From: a virus
Direction: 5' to 3' (one strand)
Length of the DNA: 60,226 bases
IMG/VR virus record: IMGVR_UViG_3300045988_163836
Part shown: positions 37,331 through 59,162 of the stretch, piece after piece
How positions within the stretch are numbered: the first letter of the stretch is position 1
Layout: every line of letters starts with the position of its first letter
Made by a program: the position numbers and the translations under genes
Notes under the pieces: model-generated
What the model saw: only the letters and a program-made list of their open reading frames with translations
What the model was told of the DNA's origin: nothing
Databases searched by the model: none

Positions 37331-37448
37331 TAATAAAGACTCCATTTTGGAGTCTTTATTTTTTTTTATCTGGACTAATTTAAATAATTTGATATTTTTA
37401 TTTTTTATATAATTTTAGAATAAGAAACATTGAAAGGAGGAACTTTCA

Positions 37449-39729: not shown

Positions 39730-39744
39730 TAAGGAGAATAATAG

Positions 39745-40731: not shown

Positions 40732-40744
40732 AGGAGGTTTTTAA

Positions 40745-41185: not shown

Positions 41186-41198
41186 GGAGTTGATTTAA

Positions 41199-43928
41199 TT
41201 GGCAAAACAAACAATTACTTTAACTAATTTATTAACTAATCCAAGTTTTGAAAAGACAGGTTGGACTGCTAATTCAGCTTGCTCAGTTAGTTACGCCACC
41301 TCTCCTAAACATTCCGGCTCTTATAGCTTAAAAGTCACATCTACCTCAAGTTCTGAATCATTAATTGTAACCTCTGACACATATGCTATCAGAAAAAATC
41401 ATATATATTATATAAGTGTTTATTTTTATGAAACTGTTAATGTATGTTCTGAAATGCAATGTTATTGGCCAATAGCAGAACCATTAGTAGGTATTGCTAA
41501 AGTAGATAAAACTAAATTAAATCAATGGCAGCGATTAAGTTGGCATAATGTACGTGCTAACTGGAATGATAATTAGACAGCTCAATTTAGATTTGATTTT
41601 GAAGGCATGGTGGGAAATACAGTAGCATATATTGATGATGCTATGCTTATTGATTTAACTGCTGCATTCGGCACAGGTAATGAACCTACTCAGGAATGGT
41701 GCAATACTAATATTGAATATTTTACTGGTAATAAAACAATTCAATATGAAGCTCCTAATAAATATGATTTAACTGTTACAACTCCTACAAAAATATAGAC
41801 TGGTGATATATTAAATTGTCCTTATAGTGGGTCTATGAAATCAGTAATTCTTCCAAAAGGATAGTATCAATTAGAATGCTGGGGCGCCTAGGGAGGCAAT
41901 GGAACTAATAATACTTCCTAGCCTGGCGGTAAAGGCGGTTATAGTAAAGGAATTATAACTCTAAATAAGAAAACTAATTTATATTTATATACCGGTGGAT
42001 AGGGCCTTAATGGAACTACTTATAATTCAAATGGAGCAACCACTGCTGGAGGATTCAATGGAGGCGGTTCTGCTACCTCAGTTAATAGTCGAGGAAGCGG
42101 TGGCGGCGGCACAGATATTCGCATTGCTGTCGATTCTTTATATGCTAGAGTTTTAGTCGCTGGTGGTGGCAGTGGTTCTAGTGGCTATACTAGTTTGGCT
42201 GGTTTTGCTGGTGGAGGAATATCAGGCAAGACATATAATAATCAAGACTCATCTAGTGGTGGCAGCTGGTATGGTGGTGGTGGTAGCCAAACCTAGGGTG
42301 GTGCAGCAAATACTAGTTATTCTAATTATACTACTGCAGGAAGCTTCGGACAAGGTGGAAATTATAATAGTGGTTCAAACACTTATTATGGCTCAGGAGG
42401 GGGCGGCGGCTGGTATGGCGGCGGTGGTGCTATCGGTGTTGGAGGTGGTGGTTCTGGTTATATGTACACTTCCAGCTCAGCCTCTTATTATCCTTCTGGT
42501 TGTTTATTGAATTCATCTTATTATTTAACTAATGCTACTATATTAGCAGGAAATGCTGCATTTATTTCTCCAACAGGTACAAGTGAAACAGGCCATGCAG
42601 GTAATGGCTATATACGTATTACCGTTATAGAAGCTAGTTCTGGAAATACTTTAGTGAAAACTACTTCGAATAATTGGAAAGAACCAGTACAAATGTTCGT
42701 AAATACTGGAAGTAGTACTACTATTTCTAGTGGATTAGTTGAATTAGAATACATTGAAAGTACCGGTACACAATATATTGACACTGGCATTAAAGCTTCA
42801 AAAAACCTAAAGGTTGAAGCTGATATAGATGTATCTGCTGCGAGTGGATGGGTTATGATACTAGGTGATTATACTAGTGGTTCATATTTTTCTTGGTGGA
42901 GACAAAATACGACTATGTATGCTTATTATGGAAGTAATAATAAAACGCTTGCAGAATTAACTGGGAAAAGAAAATATATTTCAAATAATACTAATAATAT
43001 ATGGAGCATTGACACTAGCAAAATAACTGTTACTCCAAATTCTAGTGATTTCTCAAAGGATGGAAATAATTTATATTTATTTAGTGTAAATAATGGTGGC
43101 AATTATAATAAAGCTTCAATGAAATTATATTCTTGTAAAATATATGATAATGGTACATTAGTTCGTGATTTCATCCCAGCTAGAAGGATATCTGATGGGA
43201 AAGCTGGCTTATGGGATAAAGTTAATCTTAAATTTTATACTGATGAAAATGGTGGCAATTTTACAGCAGGCACAGAAAAATCTGCTATTGCAGCAATAGG
43301 AACACCGATTGAATATATATAGTCTAGTGGCACATAGTATATTGATAGTAATTTTATTCCCAAAGCTACAACTCGCACTATTATGAAAGCTGAACCAATG
43401 TCTTGGAGTACTTGGGGTGCATTTTTTGGCACAAGAAATGCTACTTCTCCTACTGCTTCTCAAGCTTATAATGCTGCAATTCCAGCCGCTACATTATATC
43501 GTAGTGATTATTTTGGTTCATCATTAACTGCTGAAACTCCTACTGTTATGCAAATAACAAATATTGATAAAAATAAAAATATATGTTCATTTAATAATAT
43601 TATGATTACCAATACTTCTAGCACAGTAAATGCTACAACTAATATGTTTTTATTGGCATTAAATGATGTTGGAACCGCTAAATACTTTTTAAGTGCAAAA
43701 TTATATTCTTGTCAAATTTATGATGGAAACACTTTAGTCCGCGATTTTATTCCAGTTAAAACTACAACTAATATTTATGGTCTATGGGATAAAATAAATA
43801 AAGTATTCTATAAAAACGCCGGAACAGGCACCTTCACTGGCGGACCTGCTGTTACCTTGACCGGCTGGCATAAAATAAAAGGTATATGGGCAAAAACTGC
43901 CGCAAACACATGGAGTTAGGCATTATAA
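41199..43928 (+). CDS. giant Gly-rich fibre/receptor-binding protein with duplicated C-terminal domain (TTG start, about 15 TAG), about 909 aa
   Basis: Track ORFs 41199, 41607, 42462 and 43383 are all in frame 0. The G-rich segment 41877-42460 holds TAGs and Gly runs. The duplicated C-terminal module has shared motifs such as GTQYIDTGI/GTQYIDSNF and KLYSC(K/Q)IYD(N)GTLVRDFIP, with GLWDK. Confidence 0.55.
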
Positions 43929-44011
43929 AATTTGATTTTTAAAAAATTATTTTATATAATATAAATGTAAATAAGAAATAAATTTTTTATTTACAGCATT
44001 TAACTCACCCC

Positions 44012-44050
44012 CTTTCTTGAATAGGACATAATAATTAAATTATTATGTCC
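44012..44050 (+). terminator. terminator
   Basis: aataggacataataatt aaattattatgtcctatttttt. Confidence 0.6.
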
Positions 44051-44097
44051 TATTTTTTATTTATATAAGAAAGAAAAAGTAAGAAGGAGGTATACAA

Positions 44098-44532
44098 ATG
44101 GCTTCAAAAACTAGTACAAATTTAAATACTCTTTCTATCAATCAAATCCCTACTAGAGCTTTATATAGACAATTAAAAGAGGATAATTAGTTAAATGAAG
44201 AACAATCATTAGTAATTATAGACGATGATTTTGAATAGCGTCTTTATAAAGATGAAGTAAATGTAATGAGCGCCAATGGTAAAATTTAGATGGCGAATAA
44301 CTATGTCCCAATATCTGGTAATGATATAGCTACTAAAAATTATGTGGATAATAGTAATCCAACTATAACTCCTACTGTTGGTTTTACGTCAAACAATTAG
44401 ATTTATATTGGGACTACTGCTCCTTCTTCTTCATCTGCTCTTATTTGGGTAGATATTTCTAGTAATGGAGTATTGAAATATCGTACATCATCAAGCGATT
44501 CATGGAAACCTATCCCAGTTGCTTGGGGCTAA
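44098..44532 (+). CDS. fibre-like protein (TAG-containing)
   Basis: C-terminus ALIWVDISSNGVLKYRTSSSDSWKPIPVAWG is homologous to the 38737 gene C-terminus. Confidence 0.5.
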
Positions 44533-44556
44533 TAAAAAATAAAAGGAGAAAGAAAA

Positions 44557-44880
44557 ATGAAAATTATAATTAATAATTTAGTTGATAAACCTATTGATAA
44601 TTTAAGTTTTGTTACAGAACGAGCTTACCATCCTGCTTCTGATGATTAGCCAAAAACAATGTTTTTATTAGAAGCAGCTAGAGGAAATGTGCCATCTAAT
44701 TATAATATAAAACAAATGTTAGGATGGCTTATGGAATTAGATAAAATTGAAAATATAAAAGTTTATAATGATAATGAAGAACTAATTTGGGAATATAATA
44801 ATTATAATAAAGTAGATGAAATTTTTATTATGAATGATAATGGAGTCCAAATTAATAATTTAATTATTCATTTTGTTTAA
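44557..44880 (+). CDS. hypothetical protein
   Basis: Track ORFs joined by TAG; terminator 44889-44927. Confidence 0.45.
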
Positions 44881-44953
44881 CATCAATGCTTGAAAAGCTT
44901 GTTCTTAAAATTTGCTTTTCAAGCATTTTTTTTATATAATAATAAAAAAAGAA

Positions 44954-46946
44954 GGTGAATAAAATAAATTAGTATAGAGATGGACCTACTAGAGCATTTT
45001 GGCCTACAGTTTTTGATGGATTTGAATTAGAAATTCATTTAGTAGACCATTGCAACTTACAATGTAATAATTGTAATCATTTTTCTCCTTTGGCTTCTCC
45101 ATTTTTTATTACTTACGAAGATTTTCAAAATTAGCTAAAATTAGTAAAAAAAACTTTGCCTTCTATTAAAGTTTTAATGCTATTAGGGGGAGAACCATTT
45201 TTACATCCTAATTTAATAGAATTATGTTAGATAGCTAGAAATATTCTCCCAGAGATAGAAATAAAGATATTAACTAATGGTATAATTTTAAATAATTATG
45301 ATACAAAAAAATTAAAAAAATTAGAAGAATTAAATATACATATAAGTATTTCTAAATATCCTAATCAAGACTACAAAGATTTTAGCAATAATAAAAATAT
45401 CTCATATTTAAATGATAGATTTTTCTTTGATTAGACATTGGTTGACCCTTTAGGTAAACAAGATAATAAAACTCGTATATATAGTTGTCCAAATAGGATT
45501 CCTTGCTTTACATTAAAAGATTTTAAAATATATTTTTGTCAGTTTGGGGCACACATAAATAATTTTTGTAATTATTTTTTTAAACAAATTCCATTAATAG
45601 AAAATAAAGATTTTATAAAACTAACAGAAAAAACAAATTTACAAGATTTATAGAATTTAAAATTATGTGAAAAAAATATATGTAAATATTGTCGGCCAGG
45701 AGATGTGGTTGATTGGGATCAATCGACTAAAACTTATGATGAATATACTAAAACAGAAAAAGAATTATTCTTAACAAATTATAATGAATATTATAAAAAA
45801 TTTGTTGATTTTTCTAATTTTTAGGATTTTTCAAAAAAGAAATCTTGGAATAACGTTGATTCTTGGTATGCTCCTGATAAAATGAGGACATTTAGAAAGC
45901 GCAACGAAGGAAAAATTGATATTATAATTCCTTTTTATACAATAAATAAAATATATTTTTAGAAATGTTTAGATTCTGTCTTTAAACAAAGTATTATTAA
46001 TGATTGTGTAATCTATTTAATTAGTGATAATTCTCCAGATAAAAAATATGTATATGAATTTTATAAAACTTATAATAATATATACAATATAATATTATTA
46101 GATACTTAGAAAACTAAATCAGGCCCTGCATCAGCTAGGACTCTAGGAATTAATAATAGCTTCAATAAGTATTTTTTCTGTTTAGATAGTGATGATTATT
46201 TTTATGATAATAAGGCTTTAGAAAATTTATATATATATGCTGAAAATAATAATTATGGAATTGTAAATGGATAGACCTATGATAAAAATGAATTTATCCA
46301 TGACGCTCATAGTTATTTATATAATAGAGAATTTTTTATAAAAAATAATTTTTCTTATGGCAAATTTATTTATAATGAAGATAGATTTTTATCATTATAG
46401 ATTTTTGATTTTTATAATGGTGCAATTCCCTTCTTAGAATAGCCTATTTACGTATATAATAGAAATAATGAAAGTATGGGTAAAGATATTAATTTTTTAT
46501 ATATGACAATAAATGAATTAATTGTTTTTACTTATTTTTATAGACAATATTTAACAAATAAAAAATATGAAAATAATCATTTTATTTTCGAACATATTTT
46601 TAATAAAATTATTGTAAATTTATCTATAATAGAAGAAGTAACTGATAAAGACAAAGAATATCTAAAAGATATAAAACAAGAAGAAGCAATTTGTTTAAGT
46701 CTTATTTGTTTAATTTTAATTAATGATAAAATTTTGTTTAATAAGTTATCATTGTTTTATAAAGATTTATTAAATAAAATAAAAAAAGAAGATTTTATTA
46801 AATTAAATAATACTGTATTATTTAATTTAAATAGTCTATTTAATAAAGGAAATCATATACTTGATAATAATAAACTAATTAAACAATTTATTAACAAAGA
46901 GTATATTGATTTTATAAAATACGAGGAGGAAAAATATGGCAATTAG
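44954..46946 (+). CDS. radical SAM domain fused to family-2 glycosyltransferase (about 12 TAG)
   Basis: HCNLQCNNCNH (CX3CX2C), LLGGEPFLHP; GT2 motifs ISDNSPDKKY and CLDSDDYFYD (DxD). Probable GTG start. Confidence 0.55.
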
Positions 46947-47451
46947 TTCAAACTCTAAAATAAATTGGAGTGATATTTAGACTATTTTTACTAATTTAAA
47001 TACCGCAAGAAAAAAATTTTTCCCTAGTTAGAGTGATTTTCAAGCGACTCCTGGAGGATAGTCAACACAAGCTATGGCTCAATTAGCTCAGAATTTAAAT
47101 AAGTATATAGAATCTTTTTCCAGTAGCAGTTATGTTGGTTCAAGAGCAAATATTAGTGAAAATCCTCCTTCGGCAGGAGATTTAATTAGTCCTATTATTT
47201 TTAATAGATTTACTACTACAATTAGAAGCATAAATGATACTTGCGCTCATGATGCGAGTTATAATGCTAGCCATAGAGGTAGTGGATATAATAGTAGTTG
47301 GGATAGTTCTGATTATGGAGCAGGATGGGATACTTCTTATAATTCTTCTCATGATGGTTCAGGTTATCATTCTTCCTATTGGTCAGGGGTTAATCAAACC
47401 TGGTGTTCATCTCATGGATGCTCTAGTCATTACGGTTCTAGGCACACTTAA
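46936..47451 (+). CDS. Ser/His/Tyr/Gly-rich small protein (candidate modification substrate)
   Basis: 171 aa with 3 TAG; C-terminal half is low-complexity: SYNASHRGSGYNSSWDSSDYGAGWDTSYNSSHDGSGYHSSYWSG. Confidence 0.45.
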
Positions 47452-47471
47452 CATTTAAAGGAGAAAAAGGA

Positions 47472-48905
47472 ATGAAATATATATCGGATTTTTCAATAGA
47501 AGAATTATCTATTATTGGAGCTTGTGGATGTAATTTAAATTGTAAATATTGTCATTCAGCTTAGGCTGTAAATGAATATAGTAAATAGTTACAAGAATAG
47601 ACTATAAAGGCTCTTAAAGATGGAAGTTATTTATAGAATATTAAAAATGTTATGAAAAAATTAGAAGTTGATCCATTAAATATCCATAAAATAAGTTTTT
47701 GGGGTCAAGAACCTACATTAGTATTAGAACATTTTACTAAAAATTTAAAAGATTTTTTTGAATTATGTCCCAATATTAATGAATTTTTTACTTCTACTAA
47801 TGGTATGGCTAATACTGATAAAATAATTGATTTTTTAAAAACTTTTGATAATTTAACTAAAAAACATTCATTTATTTGTATTTAGTTTTCTTATGATGGA
47901 GATTATAGTACTGATAATGTAAGAAGAGCTAATTCTAAAGTAGTATATAATAATTTAAAATATTTAATAGAAACTTTAAATACAATTCGTTTTAATAATA
48001 TTACTATTGCTCTTAATACTCATGGAGTTATTAGTAATGAACTCATAAATCATTTTAATAATAATTACAAAGAAATAGAATAGTATTTTATTTAGGCTAA
48101 TGAAAAAATTCAATATTTAACTAATTTAAATCTAAATAAATCTGTTTTTATCAAAAATACTATAAATTTCTCTAGCGAATTACCTATTAATACTTCTAGC
48201 ATTGATGGTATTAATTGGAGTAATTTTATAAAAATTTGTAAATCAATTGGAGAACATTATCCAGAAATTAATAATCCAGATAAAGACTCTATTGAAGGAT
48301 TATTGTGTTTACCTCGAAAAGCAAAAAAATTTTTATTAAAAAATTTGGAATGTTCTAATTTAGATGAAGCTCTTGATAAAGTTTTAGCATTCTCTAATAA
48401 AGAATTAAAGAATTATAATAGAAACTTAACTCCATTCTTATATTGCGGAGAAAAAACAGGAAGCTTAAAACTTTTATATGATGGAACATTAGTAAATTGT
48501 TAGAGTTCTCTTTATGATACTAATCCAGAATATATTAATACTAATGATAAAATTGGGATTATTAAGCAATTTGCCGCAAATCATCATAATTATATAAATC
48601 CATTGAAAGATAAAGATGAAGATATAAAAAATTGTTGTTTTTTATTTGAAACTTTATCTGTATCTAGTTTTTTTTATGTATATAATTAGATTGTTTCTTT
48701 ATTATGTAATTTACGAGAAGTGCATTAGATAAGTCAAAAATTTAATGATGATAAATTTTTAATGAAAGCAGCATTATTATTAGTACCTATACATTCTTGC
48801 TTTTTTAACAGTTTAATCAGTACTGGTTCTTATTTCTTTAGAGATAGTGGATTTTTAAGAAGATATTGTAATGGAATTATTGAAGAAGTTTTGGAGGAAA
48901 AATAA
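47472..48905 (+). CDS. radical SAM / SPASM-like enzyme (multiple TAG)
   Basis: GACGCNLNCKYCH, GQEPTL; Cys-rich C-terminus. Confidence 0.55.
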
Positions 48906-50275
48906 TGATAACAACGTCTATTGATTTCCAATAGGAAGAAAATATTCTATTTTAGAATTTTATTTTTAATCATGAATTAAAAAAGATGGAAAATGAAATA
49001 TTAGAATTAATTATAAGACAAGACTGTAATCAAAAATGTGATTATTGTTATATAACTAATTATGGCAAAGAATTATATCCAGAACATTTTTCTAATTCTT
49101 AGATATTAGATAATTTAAAATTATTATTAGATTATTTTGATAAAAAACAAATAAAACCTTTAGAATGGTCATTATTCGCCGGAGATTTATTTTATGATGG
49201 ATTAATTTTTGAAATACTAGATGTATTTTTTCCGTATTTAAAAAAATGGTATGAATTTGCTTATAAAATAAAAGAAAAAGGTAAACTAGTAATACCTACT
49301 AATGGTAGTTTTATTTCTGATAATGAAAAAGTAATAAAAATAAAAAAATATATCCAAAAGATGAAAGATATAAATGTAGAAATTCATTTTTCATTTTCTA
49401 CTGATGGGCCGTATAGCACTGAATTTAGAGAACATAAAGATTTAAATGATGAATATTTTAATAAATTATTTGAATTTGCTACAGAAAATAATGATGGCTT
49501 CCATCCTATGATTTCTAGCCAAAATGTTGATAAAGCCATTAAAACTTATGATTGGTTTAAAAAGAAATTAAAAGAATACAATTCATGGTAGAAAACTCCT
49601 TATATGTTAGAAGTTCGAAATAATAATTGGACTCAAGAATCTATAGAGAATTATAAAAAATTCTTAAAACATATCTTTGAAGATAGATTGAATGATTGCA
49701 ATAATGATATTAATACTATGGCTTATGCAATGTTTAAAGGGGATGGGGCTAATAATACTCCTACATTTAATGAGCACAATGGAGATCCTATACGATTAAT
49801 GAATTTATCAGATAAAGAAGACAGACATAACCGAATAAGCTGTGCATTGTAGTCTACTGTCCATATAAGGGTTGGAGATTTAGCTATCGTTCCTTGTCAT
49901 CGTACTTGTTATAATCATTTAATTGGTGGACATTTTAAAATAAATGATGAAAAAACAGAGATAATTGATTTAATAAGTGATAATGCCACAGCTTATATAG
50001 GAATGAAATCTTTTAACCCTGTTTATGCTCCAAGATGTTTAGAATGCTGGTGTAGAGATGTCTGTATTAAAGGATGTTTGGGAGCTTAGATAGAAACTTA
50101 TGGTGATTTTTCTATCCCTTGTTTATCAGTTTGTAATTTATTTCAAGAAAAATATAATTATTTATTTAAATTATATTTTGAAACTGGAGTTTTGAAAAGT
50201 GCGAAAGATCAAAAAATATTACCAAAAGTAATAGAAAACATAGCTATAGAATTGGGGTATGATTTAAATGGATAA
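48905..50275 (+). CDS. radical SAM / SPASM-domain enzyme (multiple TAG)
   Basis: RQDCNQKCDYCY; C-terminal CHRTCYNH...CLECWCRDVCIKGC. An alternative start is ATG 48986. Confidence 0.55.
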
Positions 50276-50527
50276 TTTAGATAATATTTTAAAAGAAATT
50301 ACAAATAATATTATAAAAGAAAATAAGGGATATATGGATTTATTATTTGTTATATACAATAATATGGTTACTTTAGAAGAACCAAATCCAGAAGTCAATA
50401 AAAAAATAATTTATACCTTAGCAAATTTATTATAGAATTAGGATTTACGACTAAAAGATTTAAATATAGATTATTCAAAAGAATTAAATAAATTAACAAA
50501 TTAGCTATATTCTATAGGAGAATAAAA

Positions 50528-51376
50528 TTGATTAAATTTACCTTACCTGATTTTTACTATTTTCATACTGTAAATGATAAATTTATTAATTTATCAAGAA
50601 GCCATACTAATTGGCTTCTTGATAAAAACATAGTTTTTTCCTATATTAGAGGGACATTCCCTTATAATATTTGGAATGGAGGATTAAATAACATGGTTGG
50701 TGATACTTTATTGTATCCTAATATAGAATTAATAATTAAGCAAAGTAATTTACCTTTGTGGTTAGATTTTTCTAATATTTTATTAGAAAAATCAGATTTC
50801 TATGATGTAATGAGTAATGTAATTTTAAAATTATTACCAAATAATTGCATTTTTGAAATTAGTAATTTAGATTTATTAAATTATATAAATAACAAATTTC
50901 CTAATTTGAAATATGTTATTTCTAAAAATGCTAATATCTTATATCCTCTTACTCCCGATATTATAAATAATTTTCATCAAAATTTAAATCCATTATATAT
51001 AATAATCCCTAACGAGTTTAAAACTTCACAGCAATATTTAAATGAAATTAATAATAAAGAAAATATTATAATTCCAGTTAATAATCTTTGTAATCCAAAA
51101 TGTAAAAATTATTTTCAATGTCCAATAGTAGAAAATAATAATATATTAAATTATACATTTGAACCTACATTTTGTAATTGTAAAAATTCTATAAATAATA
51201 AACAATATATAACGATTAAAGAAATTAAAGATATTTATATCCCTATGGGTATCACTAATTTTTTAATAGATTATTTCTCTAACAATGAAAATGAATACGG
51301 TCTATTTTTAATTAATTATTTTATTAAACCAGAATTTAAAGAATATGCCTTTCAAGAATTATTTATAAGGAGATAA
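50528..51376 (+). CDS. paralog triad member A (unknown function)
   Basis: MIKFTLPDFYYF...WNGGLNN; paralogous to 51387 and 53695. Confidence 0.5.
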   Translation: MIKFTLPDFYYFHTVNDKFINLSRSHTNWLLDKNIVFSYIRGTFPYNIWNGGLNNMVGDTLLYPNIELIIKQSNLPLWLDFSNILLEKSDFYDVMSNVILKLLPNNCIFEISNLDLLNYINNKFPNLKYVISKNANILYPLTPDIINNFHQNLNPLYIIIPNEFKTSQQYLNEINNKENIIIPVNNLCNPKCKNYFQCPIVENNNILNYTFEPTFCNCKNSINNKQYITIKEIKDIYIPMGITNFLIDYFSNNENEYGLFLINYFIKPEFKEYAFQELFIRR

Positions 51377-51386
51377 AATATAAGTA

Positions 51387-52319
51387 ATGATTAATTTTAA
51401 TTTACCAGGTATGTATGAAACATACCAATTAAATAAATTAACAATTGAACAACTTAATAAATAGCCAGAAATTTTTAATAAAAATATTACAATTCATGCT
51501 TGTTATGGAAATTTCCAATTTTGTTCTTGGGAAGGCGGCAGAACTTTTACTAATTTTAAAACTCATTAGGCTTTAAAGAAAGATATTGAGGAAATTTTTA
51601 ATTTTTATAATTCTTATAATATTGCGGTCAGATTAGTTTTTACAAATTAGTTATTAACTAAAGAAAATTATAATAATCGTTTTGAAAATCTCATTTTAGC
51701 TATTGGAAATAATGGATTGAATGAAATTGTAATTAATAATGAAGGGTTAGAAGAATATATTAGAAATAAATATAATAAGTATAATTTTATTTCTTCAACC
51801 ACTAAAAGAATTACAAATTTAGAACAAAGTTTAAATGAAATTAAGAAAGCTCAATATAAATTTATTTGTTTAGATTATGATTTAAATTCTAATATAGATT
51901 TTTTAAAACAAATTCCTTTAAATTTAAAAAATAAAATTGAATTATTATGTAATGCAATTTGTATTCCTAATTGTCCAAATCGTATTAATCATTATAAAAT
52001 CAATAGTGAATATGCTTTATCTTATGGAAAACCTTATACATTAAATTGTAAAGCAGTTAAAAGTGTTAATAGCCCAGAAGTTATTGCTTATAAGAATACA
52101 GTAACATTAGATAATATTTATAATTTGTATTATCCTCTTGGTATTGAATAGTATAAATTAGAGGGACGTTCTTTAAATTATATTGATAATATATGTACTT
52201 ATGCTCGATATTTATTATTACCAGAATACCAATATGATTTTATTGAACATTGTGTAACAGATATTTTAGGAGTCACTGATGAACGACAAATACTGCTTTG
52301 TAACACTTGCAACAACTGA
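51387..52319 (+). CDS. paralog triad member B (4 TAG)
   Basis: MINFNLPGMYETYQ...; in frame with track ORF 51717-52151 through TAGs. Confidence 0.5.
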
Positions 52320-52914
52320 TAAATATATTAAATGTGCTTGTGCCTTATATTTTTCATTAAAAAAAGTTAATAGTAAATATCCATTTTTACTATTAACTAC
52401 TAATAATGTATCAGATATTTATTTTAAAATTTTAAAAAAAAATAATATAAATTATAAAATAATAGAATAGCCAATTTATTTTTGTGGAGATTCTAATTTT
52501 TATAAAGATACCGCTAATAAATTTTTTATTTATACTTTAACTTAGTACAAAAAAATTTGTTTTATAGATGCTGATATTTTAATTGCTGAAAATATTGATA
52601 ATATTTTTGATTATCCAGATGGTAGTTTTTATGAAGTATATGATAACTAGGAATCTAAAGGACGATTAAGTGGCGGAATAGCTATAATAAAGCCAAATAA
52701 AAATTTATATAAATCAATATTATAGTTTTATATAAATTTTCAAACAGATGAAGAAATATTTAATATCTTATATCCTAAATATTATCATTTACCAAAATTT
52801 TATTATAAACATGATACTGACCATTATCCTGATAAATGGGCTTTTCATTTAACAATATTTAAAATAAAAAAATTAATTGAACATACAAAAAATTTAACTA
52901 TACTATTGAGGTAA
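52279..52914 (+). CDS. family-8 glycosyltransferase (4 TAG)
   Basis: CFVTLATTDKY...FIDADILI matches the LgtC/glycogenin-like GT8 N-terminal motif. Confidence 0.55.
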
Positions 52915-52916
52915 CT

Positions 52917-53663
52917 ATGGATTATTTTTTATATGGATTGATCGATGGTTCTTACCAGCATGGAATAAATAATAACACAAGTGATATAGATATTATTGAA
53001 ATCTATTCTTCTTTTATAAATATGGAAAAAGAATTAAAAAAAATTTCAAATTTTGATTTAAATTTAATTCCATAGGAATAGTCTAATAATTTTATGAAAA
53101 AATTTAATATTATAAATTGGAATCCTTCAAGGCGGATTTATACAGGAGAACATTTTATTTATAATTTATTTTATAATAATAACTATAGTTATTATAGATG
53201 GTTATTCCCTTATCATTATTTAAGTGATAATGAATTTACTTTAGAAATAAAAAAAATTAATGAAGATATAGTTAAAGAAAATTTACCAGTCATTTATTCT
53301 CAATTAATTAATGAAAGTAATAGATTATTTTAGACTGGATTACGAGAAAATTATTATAAATTAAAAAATTATTATAAATTAATTTATAAATCTTTTATTG
53401 ATCTAATAATAATAATTGAATATTATAAAACAAAAAGTTATAAACAAAGTTTATAGCTAGGAATGTATAAACCATATATTTTAGATATAAAAAATAATTT
53501 TAATAATTACAGTAATTTTGATTTTATAGTAAAAAGAAATGAACTTTTAAATAAAATTTCAGAAATAAAAAATTTTTATTTAAATGCTCCTACTAACACA
53601 AAATATCAAAATTAGTTAATTCAAAAAATGGAGAATACAAATTATTCAAAATTTTATATTTGA
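52917..53663 (+). CDS. nucleotidyltransferase-like protein (TAG-containing)
   Basis: GSYQHGINNNTSDIDII minimal NTase motif. Confidence 0.45.
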
Positions 53664-53694
53664 TAAAAAGTAAAAAATATTATATAATTTAAAT

Positions 53695-54570
53695 ATGAAA
53701 AAAATAAATTTAAATTGTCCGGGATTTTATACTGGATTTAATATATATAAAACTCTTTTAGAATTACAATAGACAGCTCCAGAATGTTTCAATTTTAATG
53801 TAGCTATAGAGAGTATATTCGATACATTCCCAAATATGATTTGGAATGGAGGAACTGTCAATCAAGGCTATCAACCTTCATTAGAAAAAATAAAAGAAAT
53901 TATTGATTTTTATTATGGAAATAATATAGAAATTGCTTTAACCTTAACAAATCCATTATTAACAAAAGAAGACTTGTATGATAGATATTGTAATAAAATC
54001 GTTTCCTTATGTGAAAATGAAAATAATTCAATTTTAGTTTCTTCCTCTATTTTAGAAGAATATATAAGAAATAAATATCCTAAATTTAAAATTAAAAGAA
54101 GTATAATAGCTTCAAATAAAAATACAGATTATTTGTCTCTTTTAAATAAATATGATAAAATTGTTTTACCTCGAAGACAAATAAAAGATTTTAAGTTTTT
54201 AGAATCAATTCCAATAGAAGTAAGAAATAGATTTGAACTTTTATGCAATGACCCTTGCCCGATTATTTGTCCATATTTATATAAACATTATAATGGATTT
54301 GCTAAAATAACTTTATATGAAGAAGTAACTTCAAAAGATATTTTAAAATGTAAAACATTAAAAAGTGATGATCCTTTAAAGAATTTTCATTATAAGAATG
54401 ATCAAATTACTTATAATGAAATATGTGAAAAATATTTACCATTATTTTATAACAGCTTTAAATTAAGCGGTCGAAATGATGTATTCACTATAATTTTTTC
54501 AATAGTTCCTTTTTTCTTTAAGCAAGAATATCAATTAGAATTAGCACATTATTTATGTTGTATAATTTGA
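53695..54570 (+). CDS. paralog triad member C
   Basis: MKKINLNCPGFYTGFNIYK...MIWNGGTVNQGYQP. Confidence 0.5.
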
Positions 54571-54635
54571 AAATTTAAAAAAAATTTTATATAATATATA
54601 TAGAAATTGAGGGAAAAATAAATTCTCTCTTAAAT

Positions 54636-54708
54636 GCCGGCATAGCACAGTTGGTAGTGCAATTGATTTGTAATCAATAGGTCGGGGGTTCGAATCCGTC
54701 TGCCGGCT
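54636..54708 (+). tRNA. tRNA-Thr (UGU), no encoded CCA
   Basis: gccggca ta gcac-agttggta-gtgc a attga-tttgtaa-tcaat aggtc ggggg-ttcgaat-ccgtc tgccggc t. Confidence 0.7.
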
Positions 54709-54787
54709 CGCTATCATGTGAAAGCCTTCTCGTGGCGATAGTGTTTTAACTAATTTCACAATTATTTATTAAAGGAGTCATTTAGAT

Positions 54788-55423
54788 ATGGCATACATTT
54801 ATTAGATAATAAATAATATTAATGGAAAAATTTATGTTGGTAAAACAGTAAAAAATAATATTTAGGAACGTTGGAAAGAACATCTTAAAGATTATAAAAA
54901 ACCTAGATGTGAAAAACGTCCTTTATATGACGCAATGAATAAATATGGTTCAGAAAATTTTTCTATTAAAGAGTTAGAGGAATGTCCATTAGAAGAACTT
55001 AATGATAAAGAAGTTTATTGGATTGAAAAATTAGGTTCTTTTAAATATGGATATAACGCTACAATTGGCGGAGATGGCAAACAATATATTGACTATGATT
55101 TAGTATGCGAAACATATAAGAATTTACAATGTATTGTAGATACTGCTAAACAATTAAATATTAGTGAAGATTCAGTTTCTAAAATTTTAAAATTATATAA
55201 AATTGATATTATTCCTAATGCTAAAATAGTTCAAAATAAGTATGGGAAAATAATTAATATGTATGATTTAAATGATAATTATTTAAGGACTTTTCCATCA
55301 ACAACTGAAGCAGCTAAATTTATGGTAGAAAATAAATTAACTAATTGTAAAATGACTACTATAAAACAACATATTTCTGAAGTATGCAAATGTAAACGAA
55401 ATACAGCTGCTAAGTTTAAATGA
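54788..55423 (+). CDS. GIY-YIG homing endonuclease 2 (in-frame TAG)
   Basis: MAYIY-TAG-IINNINGKIYVGKT; paralog of the 29289 gene. A long hairpin lies downstream around 55463-55545. Confidence 0.7.
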
Positions 55424-55629
55424 AAATATGCTTAATTATTATACCATTAGCCAAGATTGGATAGTTAATAAAACCGTTTCTAGTTAATAGATTCTAGATG
55501 GCCGGGACTCAAAACTGCTGGCAATTCTAATCTTGGCTATTTTCTTTTATTTGAAAAAATTAAAAAAATAGTATATAATATATATACAAAATAAAGAAAA
55601 AAATAAATGAGAAAAAGGTGTTAAAAGTT

Positions 55630-55983
55630 ATGGAATATTCTCTGGATAAGTACAAGTATTTTATTCCCACTAAGGCAGATGGTACGCCGTATAAGGTTGT
55701 TGCAGTTTCTACTTATGCTGGTAGGACTGTGCGTGGTGTAGCCAAGTGTGATCCGAAGGATACATTTGATACTGAAAAGGGTAAGCAGCTTGCCGCAGCA
55801 CGTTGCCAGGCGAAGGTCAGTTCTCAGCGTCTGAAGCGTGCTACTAAGAAGCTTGATGAAGCTGCTAAGGCACTTGAGAAGGCACAGAAGTATTATGATG
55901 ATATGACTGTGTATTTCAATGATAGTGCAAGAGATAAGGAAATGTATGATAGCGTAGTTGAAAGACTCGCTAAGGAAATGTAA
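55630..55983 (+). CDS. Lys/Ala-rich small protein, atypically GC-rich
   Basis: Intact ORF with higher GC than the genome; followed by terminator gggtaattaattaccc (55991-56008). Confidence 0.5.
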   Translation: MEYSLDKYKYFIPTKADGTPYKVVAVSTYAGRTVRGVAKCDPKDTFDTEKGKQLAAARCQAKVSSQRLKRATKKLDEAAKALEKAQKYYDDMTVYFNDSARDKEMYDSVVERLAKEM

Positions 55984-56013
55984 TAAATAAGGGTAATTAA
56001 TTACCCTTTATAT

Positions 56014-56569
56014 CCGGGTGTAGTTCAGTTTGGTAGAACGCTTGATTTGGGAAAAGAGATTTTTGTCTAAAAAATATGTTAGATATTACTCAACAGAAAG
56101 GAACTGTAACAGAGTTAAGATGTATTCTTGATTTAACTAATCTTGGATATAGATGTTTAAAATCTGTTGATGAAAGTTCTAAATATGATGTAGTAGCTGA
56201 TATGGGGATGGGTAAATTTATCCGTATTCAATGTAAAACATCTTCTTGGGTTACTGATACAAAAGAACCTAATGTAGCTTTTGCAATTGCTACAAGTTGT
56301 ATTACCACTAATACAAAATCTACTACTCGTCATAAGTATTCAAAAGATGATATTGATTATTTTTATACTTGGTTTGAAGGCCAAGGATATTTAGTTTCCA
56401 TTGAAGAAGCTACTGGTGCAACTTTTAGATGGCGGTATGAATATCCTTCATCTGGTCAAAAACAGGGTATTCATATCGCTAATGATTACAAAATTGAGGA
56501 GGTCTTAAAGACAATCTAAGATTTTCCTGGATCAAGAGGCCGTGAGTTCAAGTCTCGCCACTCGGACCA
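56014..56569 (+). tRNA. tRNA-Pro (UGG) interrupted by about 480-nt ORF-containing intervening sequence
   Basis: 5' exon ccgggtg ta gttc-agtttggtag-aac g cttga tttggg. 3' exon from 56532: tcaag aggcc gtgag-ttcaagt-ctcgc cactcgg a cca. Junction helix tttgggaaaa/ttttcctgga plus ttgtct/agacaa. Confidence 0.7.
56076..56519 (+). CDS. intron-encoded Hjc/PD-(D/E)xK-like nuclease (paralog B)
   Basis: TELRCILDLTNLGYRCLKSV...YDVVADMGMGKFIRIQCK; fills the tRNA-Pro intervening sequence. Confidence 0.65.
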   Translation: MLDITQQKGTVTELRCILDLTNLGYRCLKSVDESSKYDVVADMGMGKFIRIQCKTSSWVTDTKEPNVAFAIATSCITTNTKSTTRHKYSKDDIDYFYTWFEGQGYLVSIEEATGATFRWRYEYPSSGQKQGIHIANDYKIEEVLKTI

Positions 56570-56918
56570 TCAGGGTTCTGTTAAAGATACATAATTGAAA
56601 AGGATTGATCTCCCTAAGTAGATTTGTATTGGAATGAAAAAATGAGGTCTAGATGACACAGATAACCTCCCCTGAACCATCCCTTTTGTTAGTAGGTTGT
56701 CGGGGTTAAATAACTAACAGTAAAGACACACGCAGCAAATATTAGATAAAATCTATGTGTTATTGGTTCAAGTCCAATATTATCTCTGTTAAGATAATTC
56801 ATCCAAAGGGTAGGATAATAGTTAATTTATTTAATGTGTCTTGTAAATTTGAATTTTAAAAAAAAATATTATATAATATATAAGTAATCAATAAGAAATT
56901 ATTAATTACTTATAATTT

Positions 56919-56993
56919 ACTGGTGTCGCCAAGCGGTAAGGCACAGGACTTTGACTCCTGTATTCGTTGGTTCAAATCCAGCCACCAGTGCCA
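56919..56993 (+). tRNA. tRNA-Gln (UUG)
   Basis: actggtg tc gcc-aagcggtaa-ggc a cagga-ctttgac-tcctg tattc gttgg-ttcaaat-ccagc caccagt g cca; leader is shared with the tRNA at 24079. Confidence 0.8.
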
Positions 56994-56997
56994 ATAT

Positions 56998-57525
56998 AGG
57001 TCAGTACAGTGTAATTGGTATCACCCCTGACTGGTTTGAAGGAGGTTCATTTTGTAGTCAAAAAGTAACAAAGATAAAGGACGTTTTGGATTAGCTATGG
57101 CTATTGCCTATTTCACTGACAAAGGCTATACAGTCTCAACTCCTTTAAATGATACTCAGTGGTATGATTTAATTATAGAACGAAATGGTAAATTTTAGAC
57201 AGTTCAATGTAAATGTACTGGAAGTTAGGATAATGTTATAATGTTAAGATCTTGCGGTGGTACTAAAGGAACTGTTTATGATAATGTTTTAAATCATTCT
57301 GAGCTTGATTTATTATTTTGTATAGATGTTCAAGGTAATATGTATGTAATTCCATTAAAAGAAATTTTAAAATCAGGAAATACAAAATAGATTACTTTAC
57401 GAACAGCTCCAACAAGCAATAATCAAGGCTTTTAGACTTATAAATTTCGAGTTCGATTCTCGTTTCAAACACCATAAATCAGGTGCTTAATGCGGTTGTT
57501 GGTTCAAGTCCAACCTGGCCTACCA
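56998..57525 (+). tRNA. tRNA-Tyr (GUA, type II) interrupted by about 440-nt ORF-containing intervening sequence
   Basis: 5' exon aggtcag ta c agtg-taattggta-tcac c cctga ctg (to 57033). 3' exon from 57475: taaa tcagg + arm tgcttaatgcggtt + gttgg-ttcaagt-ccaac ctggcct a cca. The spliced loop CUGUAAA matches the Tyr consensus. Confidence 0.6.
57052..57477 (+). CDS. intron-encoded Hjc/PD-(D/E)xK-like nuclease (paralog C, TTG start, 6 TAG)
   Basis: KGRFGLAMAIAYFTDKGYTV...YDLIIERNGKF-TAG-TVQCK; SD aaggagg; the TAA stop overlaps the first nt of the 3' exon. Confidence 0.55.
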
Positions 57526-57584
57526 TTTAAAATAAAATTTGAAAATTTAAAAAAAATATTATATAATATATATATAATAAATGA

Positions 57585-58925
57585 ACTTTAAAAATTAAAT
57601 AATAATTTAATTACGGTTATAGTACAACTCAGTGCAGACTTAACACCATAAGGCTGAGAAATCGATCCACTCTGGCGGAGATTGTAGAATGGAATATTCA
57701 AAGGATACTTTGAAATTATTTCTAAATCTTTTGTAGTGATACATTAGATTCACGCATCGAAGGATGCGGCTACGGGGAGATTGTGCTGGGATAATCGCAT
57801 TTAAGGTCCTGTTCTTCTCGCTTCCATAATAGACAGCATTGTTAACAGCAATGCCGAATCCTTGTTAGGGTAAGGCTGGTAACCTTGCCAAACCAAGGAA
57901 ATACCAATAAGGAAGTTGGCAATTGATGTGGCGTAATCTACTATAAGAGAAGGTCAAGGGTCAAGTAGCCGAAATTTGCCAAGACAGTATGATATTAATT
58001 TAGTAAAAATTATTGGTAATACTATTCTGAATGGTCGGTGAAAGATAGAGGTAGTCAGTCCTCTGTGAGATTTGGCTTAGGCCGGGGCAAGAAGTTATGA
58101 AGTCGCTATTCATAGCTCAGACTTGTTTCCTTACTTACCTAATAAAATGAAGATTATTAACCAGTAGGGCGAAGGTCCGTAGTATAATTGTAATTAAGTT
58201 ATTATTTAATAACTTACGATTTCCTTTCCTGTTAAAAATAAATCATTAAATGATTTATTTGAAATGAATTATGTAGATGCTAATATAGGCGGTGGCTTGC
58301 ACATTAACCTCATTGGGTAGCCAATCCCACATCGTTAGAGGCCTCTGCGGAACCTGCTCCTATGGCTGTAGGGTTCTTACATAATCTAATCAAATAAGGT
58401 TGACTCGCCTGTTGTCCGGTGAAATGATATATCTGGAAACCGTACTGATACGTATCAGATATTTGATTAGCGTCCTAATCTTGGTTAATTAGGTAGTGGA
58501 ACAATACGCTAAACCAGCCAGCTCTCCACTATAAATAAGCTGAATAGGGATGTTTGTGGCTCACATACCAAAAAGCCATTACCAAGTGCGGAAATAAGAT
58601 CCTTGGTAGTCTCTCATATAAAGGCGTGGAAAATGAGACGTAATGGACTACGAAAAAGACATATAATAGGTAGAGTTATTATTTATTGTGTTAGATTATA
58701 GAATGAAAATCCTATTATTAAAAACTGTATATTCTACTTCCTATTGGTAGGTATTATAAGTTTAATGGTAGGTCAAAAATTTAATATATTCCAATAGCTA
58801 ATGAATGAGGTAGGCTGAAGTACTTAGTGGCGTGGGCAGGCATAGAGGCGACCTATAAATGGTTAGTGGCTATGGTGTAGTTTATTCCTATTGGATATAT
58901 TAATTTTTGTAAATATATTCTACTG
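57585..58925 (+). ncRNA. large ORF-free structured RNA candidate (GOLLD/ROOL-like by size and context)
   Basis: About 1.3 kb with no ORF of 60 aa or more on either strand, locally GC-enriched and rich in complementary stretches. Preceded by promoter motif 57545-57580 and flanked by tRNAs. Confidence 0.45.
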
Positions 58926-59087
58926 AATAATTTGATTTTAAAAAAATTATTTAGTATAATATATTTACAAGATAAAGAGAAGTTAGGATAATTTCTCTAA
59001 GACAGTTTCAGTAAATTTTTATTAAAGATAATCATATGTTTTTTGGTTCATAAGAAGATACTTTATTAAACTGTCTTGTATATATAT

Positions 59088-59162
59088 TCCGGCTTTGGGT
59101 AACGGTTAGCTCAGCTGACTCTAAATCAGCAAGTCTCAGTTCGACTCTGAGAGCCGGTGCCA
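59088..59162 (+). tRNA. amber suppressor tRNA (anticodon CUA), glutamine-type identity
   Basis: tccggct tt gggt-aacggtta-gctc a gctga-ctctaaa-tcagc aagt ctcag-ttcgact-ctgag agccggt g cca. Loop CUCUAAA; weak 1-72 pair (U-U) and G73, as in tRNA-Gln. Confidence 0.8.

What the first reader, a model, noticed from the sequence alone, without database searches (positions are those of the whole stretch)
59088..59162. Amber suppressor tRNA(CUA) with glutamine-type identity underlies genome-wide TAG->Gln recoding
In-frame TAG occurs in dozens of genes: 12 in the 37449 fibre gene, 8 in the 20994 rSAM, and in the HEG genes. TAA and TGA still terminate genes.

Three independent alignments place TAG at Gln. 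The phage MetK (1221-2378) has ...HPDKVCD-TAG-VSD against E. coli ...HPDKIADQISD. The HNH gene has DKC-TAG-LLCANCH against NFQLLCPNCH in two intact HNH paralogs. Only with read-through do gene pairs show homologous C-termini: ILNGGDANTLN-TAA against LDGGNANTL-TGA.

The tRNA at 59088 has anticodon loop CUCUAAA, a weak U1-U72 pair and G73, the hallmarks used by GlnRS.

Many early-region ORFs are TAG-free, while MetK, HEGs and all structural genes use it. This is consistent with timing-dependent suppression.
Basis: partly seen in the sequence, partly recalled or inferred. Interest (0 to 1): 0.7.

Follow-up and report, generated by a model that had tools for sequence, protein, structure and literature searches.

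The report
Phage amber suppressor tRNA, TAG read as glutamine
This stretch of an uncultivated gut phage genome carries its own tRNA that reads the stop codon TAG, and its genes use TAG as a glutamine codon; this is real, but it is a trick already well described in gut phages.

Summary
A canonical 75-nt tRNA with anticodon CUA lies at 59088-59162(+). It has a U1·U72 mismatch, G73 and an encoded CCA end.

Reading TAG as sense raises + strand ORF coverage from 62% to 84% and the longest ORF from 593 to 909 aa. Reading TGA as sense does almost nothing. About 135 in-frame TAGs lie in about 40 genes.

TAG means glutamine. The MetK TAG sits where 64 of 80 bacterial MetK genes have CAA or CAG. At codon level, window TAGs align mainly with TAG, CAA or CAG in relatives that are 50-95% identical. 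A likelihood test over 88 TAG columns ranks Gln first, 32 log units above Lys.

The tRNA belongs to a covarying family found in 21 viral contigs of about 10-200 kb, most of whose loci also gain ORF coverage when TAG is read as sense.

TAG supplies 8% of Gln codons in 1-20.6 kb and about 36% beyond that. This fits the published late-gene gating model, but timing was not tested.

The acceptor-end features fit GlnRS but do not prove it.

This is a new member of a known kind (code 15 phages). Interest is low.

The parts
59088..59162 (+). Amber suppressor tRNA, anticodon CUA. Features: U1·U72 mismatch, G73, encoded CCA, 4-nt variable loop, G18G19 and a T-loop TTCGACT.
   Evidence: ARAGORN. Rfam tRNA 49.2 bits. 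Cloverleaf minimum-energy fold. In 13 distinct family members, 12 of 21 stem pairs show compensatory changes.
58932..58960 (+). Sigma-70-like promoter match TTGATT-17-TATAAT, 128 nt upstream of the suppressor tRNA. Candidate only.
   Evidence: Consensus scan, 10 of 12 matches. Similar top-scoring sites precede tRNA-Gln (56849-56877) and ROOL (57539-57567). The region gave 25 sites against 16 expected by chance, so this is weak evidence.
56919..56993 (+). Phage tRNA-Gln(UUG) for CAA/CAG. It shares a weak first pair (A1-U72) and G73 with the suppressor.
1221..2378 (+). MetK (SAM synthetase) with one in-frame TAG at 1281-1283, inside the HPDKxxDQxSD motif.
   Evidence: Matches PDB MetK at E=3e-115 with Q at the TAG position. 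That position is CAG or CAA in 64 of 80 bacterial MetK genes.
20991..22334 (+). Radical SAM gene with 7 in-frame TAGs.
   Evidence: Pfam and PHROG radical SAM matches. TAG positions 38, 109 and 250 align with Gln codons in 69, 71 and 64 of about 80 viral homologs at DNA level.
25576..26139 (+). HNH homing-endonuclease-like gene with 5 in-frame TAGs, one of them in the ..C-TAG-LLCANCH motif.
   Evidence: The paralog at 59479-59925 has Q at that position.
41199..43928 (+). Glycine-rich tail-fibre-like gene (CBM_4_9 plus ALK_LTK_GRD domains) with 10 in-frame TAGs.
   Evidence: Pfam. Position 231 is Gln (CAA or CAG) in 63 of 64 homologs.
44955..46958 (+). Radical SAM plus glycosyltransferase-2 gene with 12 in-frame TAGs.
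   Evidence: In relatives L135, L136 and L138 the window's TAGs align with TAG or CAA at positions 60, 92, 160, 233 and 482.
47403..48905 (+). Radical SAM gene with 12 in-frame TAGs.
1..20650 (+). TAG-poor block: 13 TAGs in 6373 codons (8% of Gln codons); 22 of 31 ORFs are TAG-free; GC3 is 25%.
20651..58991 (+). TAG-rich block with fibre, radical SAM, homing-endonuclease and tRNA genes: 122 TAGs in 9752 codons (about 36% of Gln codons); GC3 is 16%.
   Evidence: Fisher test against the first block gives p of about 3e-13.

Best explanation
The window comes from an uncultivated, low-GC (31%) tailed phage of the gut, with relatives on contigs of about 105-200 kb. It uses genetic code 15: TAG is a glutamine codon, and TAA and TGA still terminate.

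**Shown.** Dozens of genes are intact only if TAG is read through. Where the aligned position is conserved in homologs, it is Gln. The phage encodes a structurally sound tRNA with anticodon CUA. That tRNA belongs to a conserved family that travels with TAG-recoded loci.

**Inferred.**
- This tRNA is the decoder.
- It is charged with glutamine by a host enzyme, since no aaRS or release factor lies in the window. Direct charging by GlnRS is the more likely route. The tRNA has U35, G73, G10-C25 and an already open 1:72 pair. It has C34, not the modified U34 that B. subtilis-type GluRS needs, and it lacks the U1-A72 pair used by the amidotransferase route.
- Because TAG is concentrated in the fibre, radical SAM and homing-endonuclease genes and is rare in the first 20 kb, full-length products of the TAG-rich genes appear only once enough suppressor tRNA has accumulated to outcompete host RF1.
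For: - **Coding density.** Coverage is 62% with code 11 and 84% with TAG as sense, and the longest ORF grows from 593 to 909 aa. TGA as sense has no comparable effect.
- **No sign that TAG still terminates.** There is no excess of TAG near gene ends: 7 observed against 6.75 expected in the last 5% of ORFs.
- **Gln assignment.** The MetK TAG aligns with Q in PDB MetKs and with CAG or CAA in 64 of 80 bacterial genomes. Radical SAM positions 38, 109 and 250 align with Q in 64-71 of about 80 homologs. Fibre position 231 is Q in 63 of 64. In relatives about 50% identical, window TAGs align with TAG, CAA or CAG. Across 88 TAG columns the internal-control log-likelihoods are Q -238, K -270 and W -451, and Q is the plurality residue in 25 of 88 columns against a 2.3% background.
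- **The tRNA.**. Family covariation shows 93% of cells paired, 12 pairs with changes on both sides, and 0 of 500 shuffles reaching the observed score.
- **The family co-occurs with recoding.** In 20 loci that carry it, mean coverage rises from 0.66 to 0.82 with TAG as sense, against 0.73 with TGA as sense. In 23 control loci it stays at 0.90.
- **The 1:72 position.** When positions 1, 72 and 73 were left free in the search, the two further members with a family-like D arm and G73 had U1·C72 and A1-U72. Two other tRNA(CUA) genes with C1-G72/U73 and G1-C72/A73 also matched but look unrelated.
- **TAG skew between blocks.**
- **Literature.** The same phenomenon, host-aaRS hypothesis and late-gene and homing-endonuclease bias are published (10.1101/2021.08.26.457843). 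Proteomic proof of TAG as Gln exists for crAss-like phages (PMC9523058). GlnRS identity rules and glutaminylation of amber suppressors are reviewed in PMC9976931.
Against: - Many TAG columns are variable (K, E, N, T), so Gln is proven only at the conserved ones. One fairly conserved column is Ala (fibre position 366, in a low-complexity Gly-rich stretch).
- The acceptor pairs C2-G71 and C3-G70 differ from the E. coli Gln determinants, and A36 and A38 differ from G36 and U38.
- Overall sequence similarity does not place the tRNA with tRNA-Gln: it is 61% identical to the window's tRNA-Gln(UUG).
- The host is unknown. Strong AGGAGG ribosome-binding sites and MetK neighbours hint at Bacillota. Not all Bacillota have GlnRS (own knowledge).
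- The TAG-poor block also has higher GC3 and more G-ending codons in general, so part of the skew may be compositional.
- None of its genes could be called early.
- The tRNA has a constitutive-looking sigma-70-type promoter match.
Confidence: 0.85

Rival explanations
1. TAG is a sense codon but is read as another amino acid, such as Lys, Glu, Trp, Tyr or Leu.
For: Many TAG columns have K, E or N as the plurality residue, and K is second in the likelihood ranking. G73 with a weak first pair also occurs in bacterial tRNA-Trp (own knowledge). tRNAscan isotype calls for other phage suppressors include Trp, Ile and Tyr (PMC10879173).
Against: Every strongly conserved TAG column except one is Gln. 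Gln beats Lys by 32 log units, and Trp is the worst fit. K is 8% of residues, so it is expected at variable columns. In relatives about 50% identical, TAG frequently aligns with CAA, which is two substitutions away and is what synonymy predicts.
Confidence: 0.05
2. The recoding is real, but this tRNA is not the decoder or not the only one. Other suppressors elsewhere in the genome, host factors or release-factor manipulation do the work.
For: Only 60 kb of a genome of roughly 105-200 kb is visible. Other code 15 phages carry several suppressor tRNAs (three in phAss-1; PMC10607447) or RF2. Suppressor tRNAs were detected in only 40% of TAG-recoded genomes.
Against: The tRNA is intact, structurally conserved with covariation, identical or one nucleotide different in close relatives, and co-distributed with TAG-recoded loci.
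Confidence: 0.08
3. The TAGs are true stops, so the genes are fragmented pseudogenes or assembly errors and the tRNA is incidental.
For: None beyond the formal possibility.
Against: About 135 interruptions use TAG only and never TAA or TGA. Homology continues across TAGs. TAG positions are conserved as TAG in independent assemblies about 95% identical. Public gene callers already translate relatives with code 15.
Confidence: 0.01
4. This is a pyrrolysine tRNA, as the ARAGORN label says, and TAG encodes Pyl.
For: The CUA anticodon and the ARAGORN label.
Against: The cloverleaf is canonical, with an 8-nt D loop containing G18G19, a normal T loop and a 5-bp anticodon stem, unlike tRNA-Pyl (own knowledge of tRNA-Pyl architecture). 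No pyl genes turned up among the ORFs scanned. The aligned residue is Gln, not Lys-like.
Confidence: 0.01

Closest known systems
Code 15 (TAG read as Gln) gut phages with suppressor tRNA(CUA): crAss-like phages, Lak phages and the Garnet to Topaz clades of Borges et al. (10.1101/2021.08.26.457843), validated by proteomics in PMC9523058
   Same: Low GC; in-frame TAG concentrated in structural and late genes and in homing endonucleases; TAA and TGA kept as stops; a phage-encoded tRNA(CUA); no phage GlnRS; a TAG-poor block that can be read in standard code.
   Different: A different lineage. Neither the 24-kb stretch 31000-55000 at DNA level nor the 572-aa protein of 8733-10451 matches GenBank phages, and the radical SAM matches at 37% identity or less. 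No lysis or DNA-replication genes are visible in the window, so the late-gene link is untested. No RF2 was seen in the window.
phAss-1 / proposed Phassvirus (PMC10607447)
   Same: A human-gut phage of about 136 kb with TAG in 28% of ORFs, tRNA-Sup-CTA genes called Gln by tRNAscan-SE, many tRNAs and no aaRS.
   Different: The two window proteins tried found no GenBank phage above 37% identity. That phage carries three suppressor tRNA genes; one is visible here.
E. coli supE (tRNA-Gln CUA) and the su7 tRNA-Trp amber suppressor that GlnRS glutaminylates (reviewed in PMC9976931)
   Same: The CUA anticodon keeps U35, the main GlnRS anticodon determinant. G73, G10-C25 and a weak or open 1:72 pair favour GlnRS.
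   Different: Those are point mutants of cellular tRNAs, whereas this is a dedicated, conserved phage gene. It has a U1·U72 mismatch instead of U1-A72, and C2-G71/C3-G70 instead of G2-C71/G3-C70.
Theta (HDV-like) ribozyme and tRNA-Sup modules of recoded gut phages (PMC10879173)
   Same: Gut phage, code 15 and a suppressor tRNA. A weak HDV-like match does abut another tRNA in this window (tRNA-Ala, 27864-27931).
   Different: No ribozyme match lies next to the suppressor tRNA. This tRNA encodes its CCA end, whereas only 4.5% of theta-associated tRNAs do.

Membership tests
Code 15 (TAG read as Gln) recoded bacteriophage | Coding density rises by more than about 5-10% when TAG is read as sense, with fragmented genes merging | tested here: met
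   Coverage is 62% with code 11 and 84% with TAG as sense. The longest ORF grows from 593 to 909 aa. TGA as sense gives 63%.
Code 15 (TAG read as Gln) recoded bacteriophage | In-frame TAG aligns with glutamine in homologs | tested here: met
   Q is the best fit by likelihood and is the residue at 5 of the 6 strongly conserved columns.
Code 15 (TAG read as Gln) recoded bacteriophage | TAA and TGA still terminate, and TAG is not used as a terminator | tested here: met
   There are no TGA-driven merges apart from one doubtful case. There is no excess of TAG at ORF 3' ends. A few TAGs close to the C-terminus (8644, 10395, 32502, 50502) cannot be excluded as stops.
Code 15 (TAG read as Gln) recoded bacteriophage | Phage-encoded suppressor tRNA with anticodon CUA | tested here: met
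Code 15 (TAG read as Gln) recoded bacteriophage | Peptides with Gln at TAG positions; host uses the standard code | not testable with these tools
   This needs metaproteomics and host identification. The tRNA family is absent from one genome of each of 185,579 bacterial and archaeal species.
Glutamine-identity tRNA (E. coli GlnRS determinant set, PMC9976931) | U35 in the anticodon, with G36 contributing | tested here: inconclusive
   U35 is present. Position 36 is A, as in every amber suppressor; supE-type tRNAs are still charged by GlnRS.
Glutamine-identity tRNA (E. coli GlnRS determinant set, PMC9976931) | Weak 1:72 pair and discriminator G73 | tested here: met
   U1·U72 mismatch and G73. 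With these positions left free in the search, the two further family-like members have U·C and A-U, both with G73.
Glutamine-identity tRNA (E. coli GlnRS determinant set, PMC9976931) | Acceptor pairs G2-C71 and G3-C70 | tested here: not met
   C2-G71 and C3-G70, invariant in the family. This invariance was fixed by the search pattern.
Glutamine-identity tRNA (E. coli GlnRS determinant set, PMC9976931) | G10-C25 pair | tested here: met
   G10-C25 is invariant in all 13 family sequences.
Glutamine-identity tRNA (E. coli GlnRS determinant set, PMC9976931) | Highest score with a tRNAscan-SE Gln isotype model | not testable with these tools
   tRNAscan-SE is not available. Plain sequence identity does not group it with tRNA-Gln.
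tRNA-Pyl | Atypical architecture (short D loop without G18G19, 3-nt variable loop, 6-bp anticodon stem) and pyl genes | tested here: not met
   The cloverleaf is canonical, with an 8-nt D loop containing GG, a 4-nt variable loop and a 5-bp anticodon stem. No pyl genes were found among the scanned ORFs.
Theta ribozyme and tRNA-Sup module | HDV-like ribozyme with its cleavage site within ±5 nt of the tRNA 3' end | tested here: not met
   No Rfam match with E up to 1 in 58950-59350 other than the tRNA itself.

The most novel reading that the evidence does not exclude
The mismatched first pair (U1·U72, or U·C) together with G73 and the C2-G71/C3-G70 acceptor end defines a dedicated lineage of phage amber suppressors.

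One possible purpose is to make up for the lost G36 determinant when host GlnRS charges the tRNA. Another is to alter how EF-Tu, peptidyl-tRNA hydrolase or host tRNA-targeting defences handle it.

Separately, the excess of TAG in the first tenth of genes (25 observed against 13.5 expected, mostly behind strong ribosome-binding sites) may be a deliberate early-abort gate and not drift.
Probability: 0.15. Interest if true: 0.45.

Novelty: new member of a known kind. Interest (0 to 1): 0.2.

Why it matters
**For annotation.** This lineage must be called with table 15. With table 11, about a quarter of the coding sequence is lost and the fibre and radical SAM genes are shattered. Public protein collections already translate its relatives with TAG as Q, so pipelines have largely caught up.

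**For biology.** It adds one more independent, probably Bacillota-infecting, large-phage lineage to the known TAG-as-Gln phages. It also supplies a well-defined suppressor tRNA family with an unusual open first base pair, which could be used to test how host enzymes charge phage suppressors. It does not change the current picture.

Tried and rejected
- **GenBank phage searches.** Megablast of 31000-55000 gave only tRNA-sized hits. tblastn with the 572-aa protein gave nothing. tblastn with the radical SAM found only homologs at 37% identity or less. No named relative emerged.
- **Protein-level tally.** The tally of residues at TAG positions in database homologs turned out to be partly circular. 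Those proteins had been translated with TAG as Q. I therefore relied on codon-level comparisons.
- **'TAG replaces CAG'.** The combined share of CAG and TAG among Gln codons is 54% in one block and 48% in the other. I rejected this as a specific signal because all G-ending codons halve in the TAG-rich block.
- **Isotype by similarity.** Pairwise identity to 250 tRNAs was uninformative.
- **Host search.** The tRNA family pattern found nothing in bacterial genomes. The nearest bacterial MetK genes are only about 50% identical, mostly from Clostridia.
- **Other elements.** No ribozyme lies next to the suppressor tRNA, no group I intron model matches the tRNA-Leu insert, and no release factor or aaRS is in the window.
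- **A second recoding.** TGA as sense gave no gain.
- **Long-arm tRNA(CUA).** Such genes in 57% GC viral contigs show little gain from TAG as sense and were not pursued.

Full report
**1. The tRNA**

ARAGORN finds 14 tRNA genes in the window. One lies at 59088-59162(+) with anticodon cta. Its 'Pyl' label is only a naming convention for that anticodon. The Rfam tRNA model scores it at 49.2 bits against a gathering score of 29, and marks pair 1:72 as non-standard. The minimum-energy fold is a cloverleaf.

Reading the sequence directly:
- acceptor UCCGGCU/AGCCGGU, that is U1·U72 followed by six Watson-Crick pairs
- G73 and an encoded CCA end
- D stem GGGU/GCUC with loop AACGGUUA (G18G19 present)
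- anticodon stem GCUGA/UCAGC with loop CUCUAAA
- a 4-nt variable loop
- T arm CUCAG-UUCGACU-CUGAG

**2. Is TAG really in frame?**

All credible genes are on the + strand. Non-overlapping ORF tiling gives the following:

| Reading | Coverage | Longest ORF |
|---|---|---|
| Code 11 | 62% | 593 aa |
| TAG as sense | 84% | 909 aa |
| TGA as sense | 63% | 593 aa |
| TAA as sense | 74% | 600 aa |

- The TAA result is the spurious gain expected in 31% GC DNA.
- Making TGA sense on top of TAG adds two points and one doubtful merge.
- Much of the remaining 16% is taken up by tRNA genes, a ROOL RNA and other non-coding elements.
- About 40 credible genes contain 135 or more in-frame TAGs.
- TAGs are not enriched at the 3' ends of ORFs (7 in the last 5%, against 6.75 expected). 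So there is no sign that TAG still serves as a terminator.
- TAGs are enriched in the first tenth of ORFs (25 against 13.5 expected). Most of these follow a strong AGGAGG-type ribosome-binding site with no alternative start downstream.

The ORF at 37449 has 6 TAGs and the radical SAM at 20991 has 7, while the genes with 12 are 44955 and 47403. Only one intact HNH paralog carries NFQLLCPNCH.

**3. Which amino acid?**

- **MetK.** The TAG at 1281 falls on the Q of HPDKxxDQxSD in solved MetK structures. That position is CAG or CAA in 64 of the 80 closest bacterial MetK genes, Ala in 11 and other residues in 5.
- **Radical SAM 20991.** Three of its seven TAGs align with Gln codons in 64-71 of about 80 viral homologs read at DNA level. 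The other four fall in variable columns.
- **Fibre gene.** Position 231 is Gln in 63 of 64 homologs.
- **Relatives about 50% identical** (a 199-kb Hadza gut contig and a GenBank metagenome contig). Window TAGs align mainly with TAG, CAA and CAG. CAA is two substitutions from TAG, so frequent TAG/CAA exchange is what synonymy predicts.
- **Internal control.** I built the substitution profile of each real amino acid from the same alignments and scored 88 TAG columns against each profile. Gln wins at -238, ahead of Lys at -270 and Asn at -301, with Trp last at -451. Gln is the plurality residue in 25 of 88 columns although it makes up only 2.3% of residues.
- **One contrary column.** Fibre position 366 is mostly Ala. 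It lies in a low-complexity Gly-rich stretch where alignment is unreliable.
- **A caveat I ran into.** The large protein collection already holds relatives translated with TAG as Q. Protein-level tallies are therefore partly circular, and I do not rely on them.

**4. Does the tRNA go with the recoding?**

- The identical tRNA is present in relative 164919. A copy with one D-loop change is in 3300029858_000001.
- A pattern search for tRNA(CUA) genes with the same acceptor ends found 21 viral contigs of about 10-200 kb (most over 80 kb) carrying 14 distinct sequences. I aligned 13 of them.
- On the cloverleaf, 93% of cells pair and 12 of 21 pairs show changes on both sides. None of 500 shuffles reaches this, and sliding the partner columns destroys the signal. 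It is a functional, evolving tRNA family.
- The acceptor sequence was fixed by that pattern, so I repeated the search with positions 1, 72 and 73 left free. Two further tRNA(CUA) genes with a family-like D arm and G73 had U1·C72 and A1-U72. Two clearly different tRNA(CUA) genes with C1-G72/U73 and G1-C72/A73 also matched. The first pair is weak or open throughout the family.
- In 20 loci that carry the family, reading TAG as sense raises mean ORF coverage from 0.66 to 0.82, against 0.73 for TGA as sense. In 23 control viral loci it stays at 0.90.
- The pattern is absent from one genome of each of 185,579 bacterial and archaeal species.

**5. Who charges it?**

No aminoacyl-tRNA synthetase or release factor turned up among the ORFs scanned. 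Only 60 kb of the genome is visible.

The E. coli glutamine identity set comprises U35 and G36, the acceptor stem including pairs 1-72 and 3-70, the discriminator base and the 10-25 pair. Amber suppressors derived from tRNA-Trp and tRNA-fMet are glutaminylated (PMC9976931).

This tRNA has U35, G73, G10-C25 and an open first pair. It has C2-G71/C3-G70, A36 and A38 where E. coli tRNA-Gln has G2-C71/G3-C70, G36 and U38.

The indirect route depends on a modified U34 for B. subtilis GluRS and on U1-A72 for the amidotransferase (same review). This tRNA has C34 and no U1-A72 pair. I therefore favour direct charging by a host GlnRS, at roughly 60%.

The host is unknown. Strong Shine-Dalgarno sites and Clostridia-like nearest MetK genes at about 50% identity hint at Bacillota.

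**6. Timing**

| Region | TAGs | Codons | TAG share of Gln codons | TAG-free ORFs |
|---|---|---|---|---|
| 1-20650 | 13 | 6373 | 8% | 22 of 31 |
| 20650-59000 | 122 | 9752 | about 36% | 5 of 36 |

The difference gives a Fisher p of about 3e-13. This is the pattern published for code 15 phages, including preferential recoding of homing endonucleases.

Three things keep it an inference:
- The TAG-poor block has no recognisable early functions. It holds MetK, a metallophosphatase, an RlaP-like nucleotidyltransferase, an M28 peptidase, a kinase-like ATPase and unknowns.
- That block also has higher GC3 (25% against 16%) and twice the share of every G-ending codon.
- The tRNA is preceded by a sigma-70-type match, TTGATT-17-TATAAT. 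If that site is real, host polymerase could transcribe the tRNA from the start of infection.

MetK itself needs read-through at a position that is Gln in most bacterial MetK genes.

**7. Comparison with what is known**

TAG read as Gln in gut phages is established:
- suppressor tRNAs, reliance on host synthetases and late-gene bias (10.1101/2021.08.26.457843)
- proteomic proof in crAss-like phages (PMC9523058)
- further lineages such as phAss-1 (PMC10607447)
- theta ribozymes next to suppressor tRNAs (PMC10879173)

This window belongs to a lineage with no close GenBank phage among the queries tried. The lineage is present in IMG/VR and ENA assemblies. Unlike the theta-ribozyme modules, this suppressor tRNA encodes its CCA end and has no ribozyme match beside it.

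**Verdict.** This is a new member of a known kind, of low interest.

Noticed in passing
window 57604-58197 (+): A full-length ROOL RNA (323 bits, E=1e-73). The best sigma-70-like site in the region (TTGAAA-17-TATAAT, 57539-57567) lies just upstream. It sits between tRNA-Gln(UUG) and the suppressor tRNA in an island of non-coding RNA genes.
   Followed up: no
window 60099-60211 (+): A RAGATH-33 RNA (139 bits against a gathering score of 120), starting 11 nt after the 3' exon of the split tRNA-Leu.
   Followed up: no
window 59262-59295 and 60034-60088 (+), insert 59296-60033: A tRNA-Leu(UAA) gene is split in its anticodon loop (after U34) by a 738-nt insert that carries a TAG-free HNH endonuclease ORF (59479-59925). 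Relative L103 has the uninterrupted tRNA. The insert ends in G like a group I intron, but no Rfam intron model matches it.
   Followed up: partly
window 24079-24223 (+): A tRNA-like gene (Rfam 46.6 bits) with a 73-nt insert in the anticodon loop, too short for a typical group I intron. ARAGORN with introns calls it Trp(CCA). Shifting the junction by one base would give UCA, an opal suppressor. It was not found in the relatives' loci. Reading TGA as sense gives no ORF gain, so TGA recoding is not supported.
   Followed up: partly
window 27864-27931 (+): A weak HDV-like ribozyme match (HDV-F-prausnitzii, 32 bits against a gathering score of 44) starts exactly at the 3' end of a CCA-less tRNA-Ala, with a plausible P1 helix GUCAUCU/AGAUGAU. 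This looks like the published theta-ribozyme and tRNA arrangement.
   Followed up: partly
window 30502-30587 (+): An 86-nt tRNA with a long variable arm but anticodon CCA (Trp), 3 nt after tRNA-Ser(GCU). It has no CCA end. The Rfam tRNA-Sec model scores 39 bits, below threshold. Its identity is unclear.
   Followed up: no
window 22306-22956 (+): A 216-aa ORF that my first tiling missed (good ribosome-binding site, 2 in-frame TAGs). Its C-terminal half is about 25 CxxxC repeats (…CSGSCSGCSGSCSGGC…). It overlaps the end of the radical SAM gene 20991-22334 by 29 nt, so it may be a substrate of that enzyme. Its only family match is phrog_6085 (function unknown). The neighbouring gene then starts at 22943, not 22670.
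   Followed up: partly
window 41199-50275 (+); L135 1-7782: A Gly-rich ALK_LTK_GRD fibre-like gene is followed, after two small ORFs, by a radical SAM plus GT2 fusion and two more radical SAM-like genes. All are heavily TAG-recoded. The arrangement is syntenic in a 199-kb Hadza gut contig. Function is unknown; it may modify the fibre.
   Followed up: no
window 8733-10451, 14749-16392, 18883-20310 (+): Three large paralogs share an HPLDY[LM][ST][LM]S[DE]N..W.SC motif and Cys-rich (CxxC) C-terminal parts. None has a Pfam family; one hits phrog_18912 (function unknown).
   Followed up: no
loci L090, L092, L097, L113, L116, L124: Viral contigs of 30-39 kb and 57% GC carry an 84-nt tRNA(CUA) with a long variable arm, G1-C72 and A73 (Leu/Tyr-like in shape). 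The five of these loci that were checked gain little ORF coverage when TAG is read as sense. They may be suppressors without wholesale recoding.
   Followed up: partly
window 1-20650 versus 20650-59000: The two blocks differ in composition: GC 34% against 29%, and GC3 25% against 16%. Every G-ending two-fold codon is about twice as frequent in the first block. This suggests different expression classes or different histories.
   Followed up: partly
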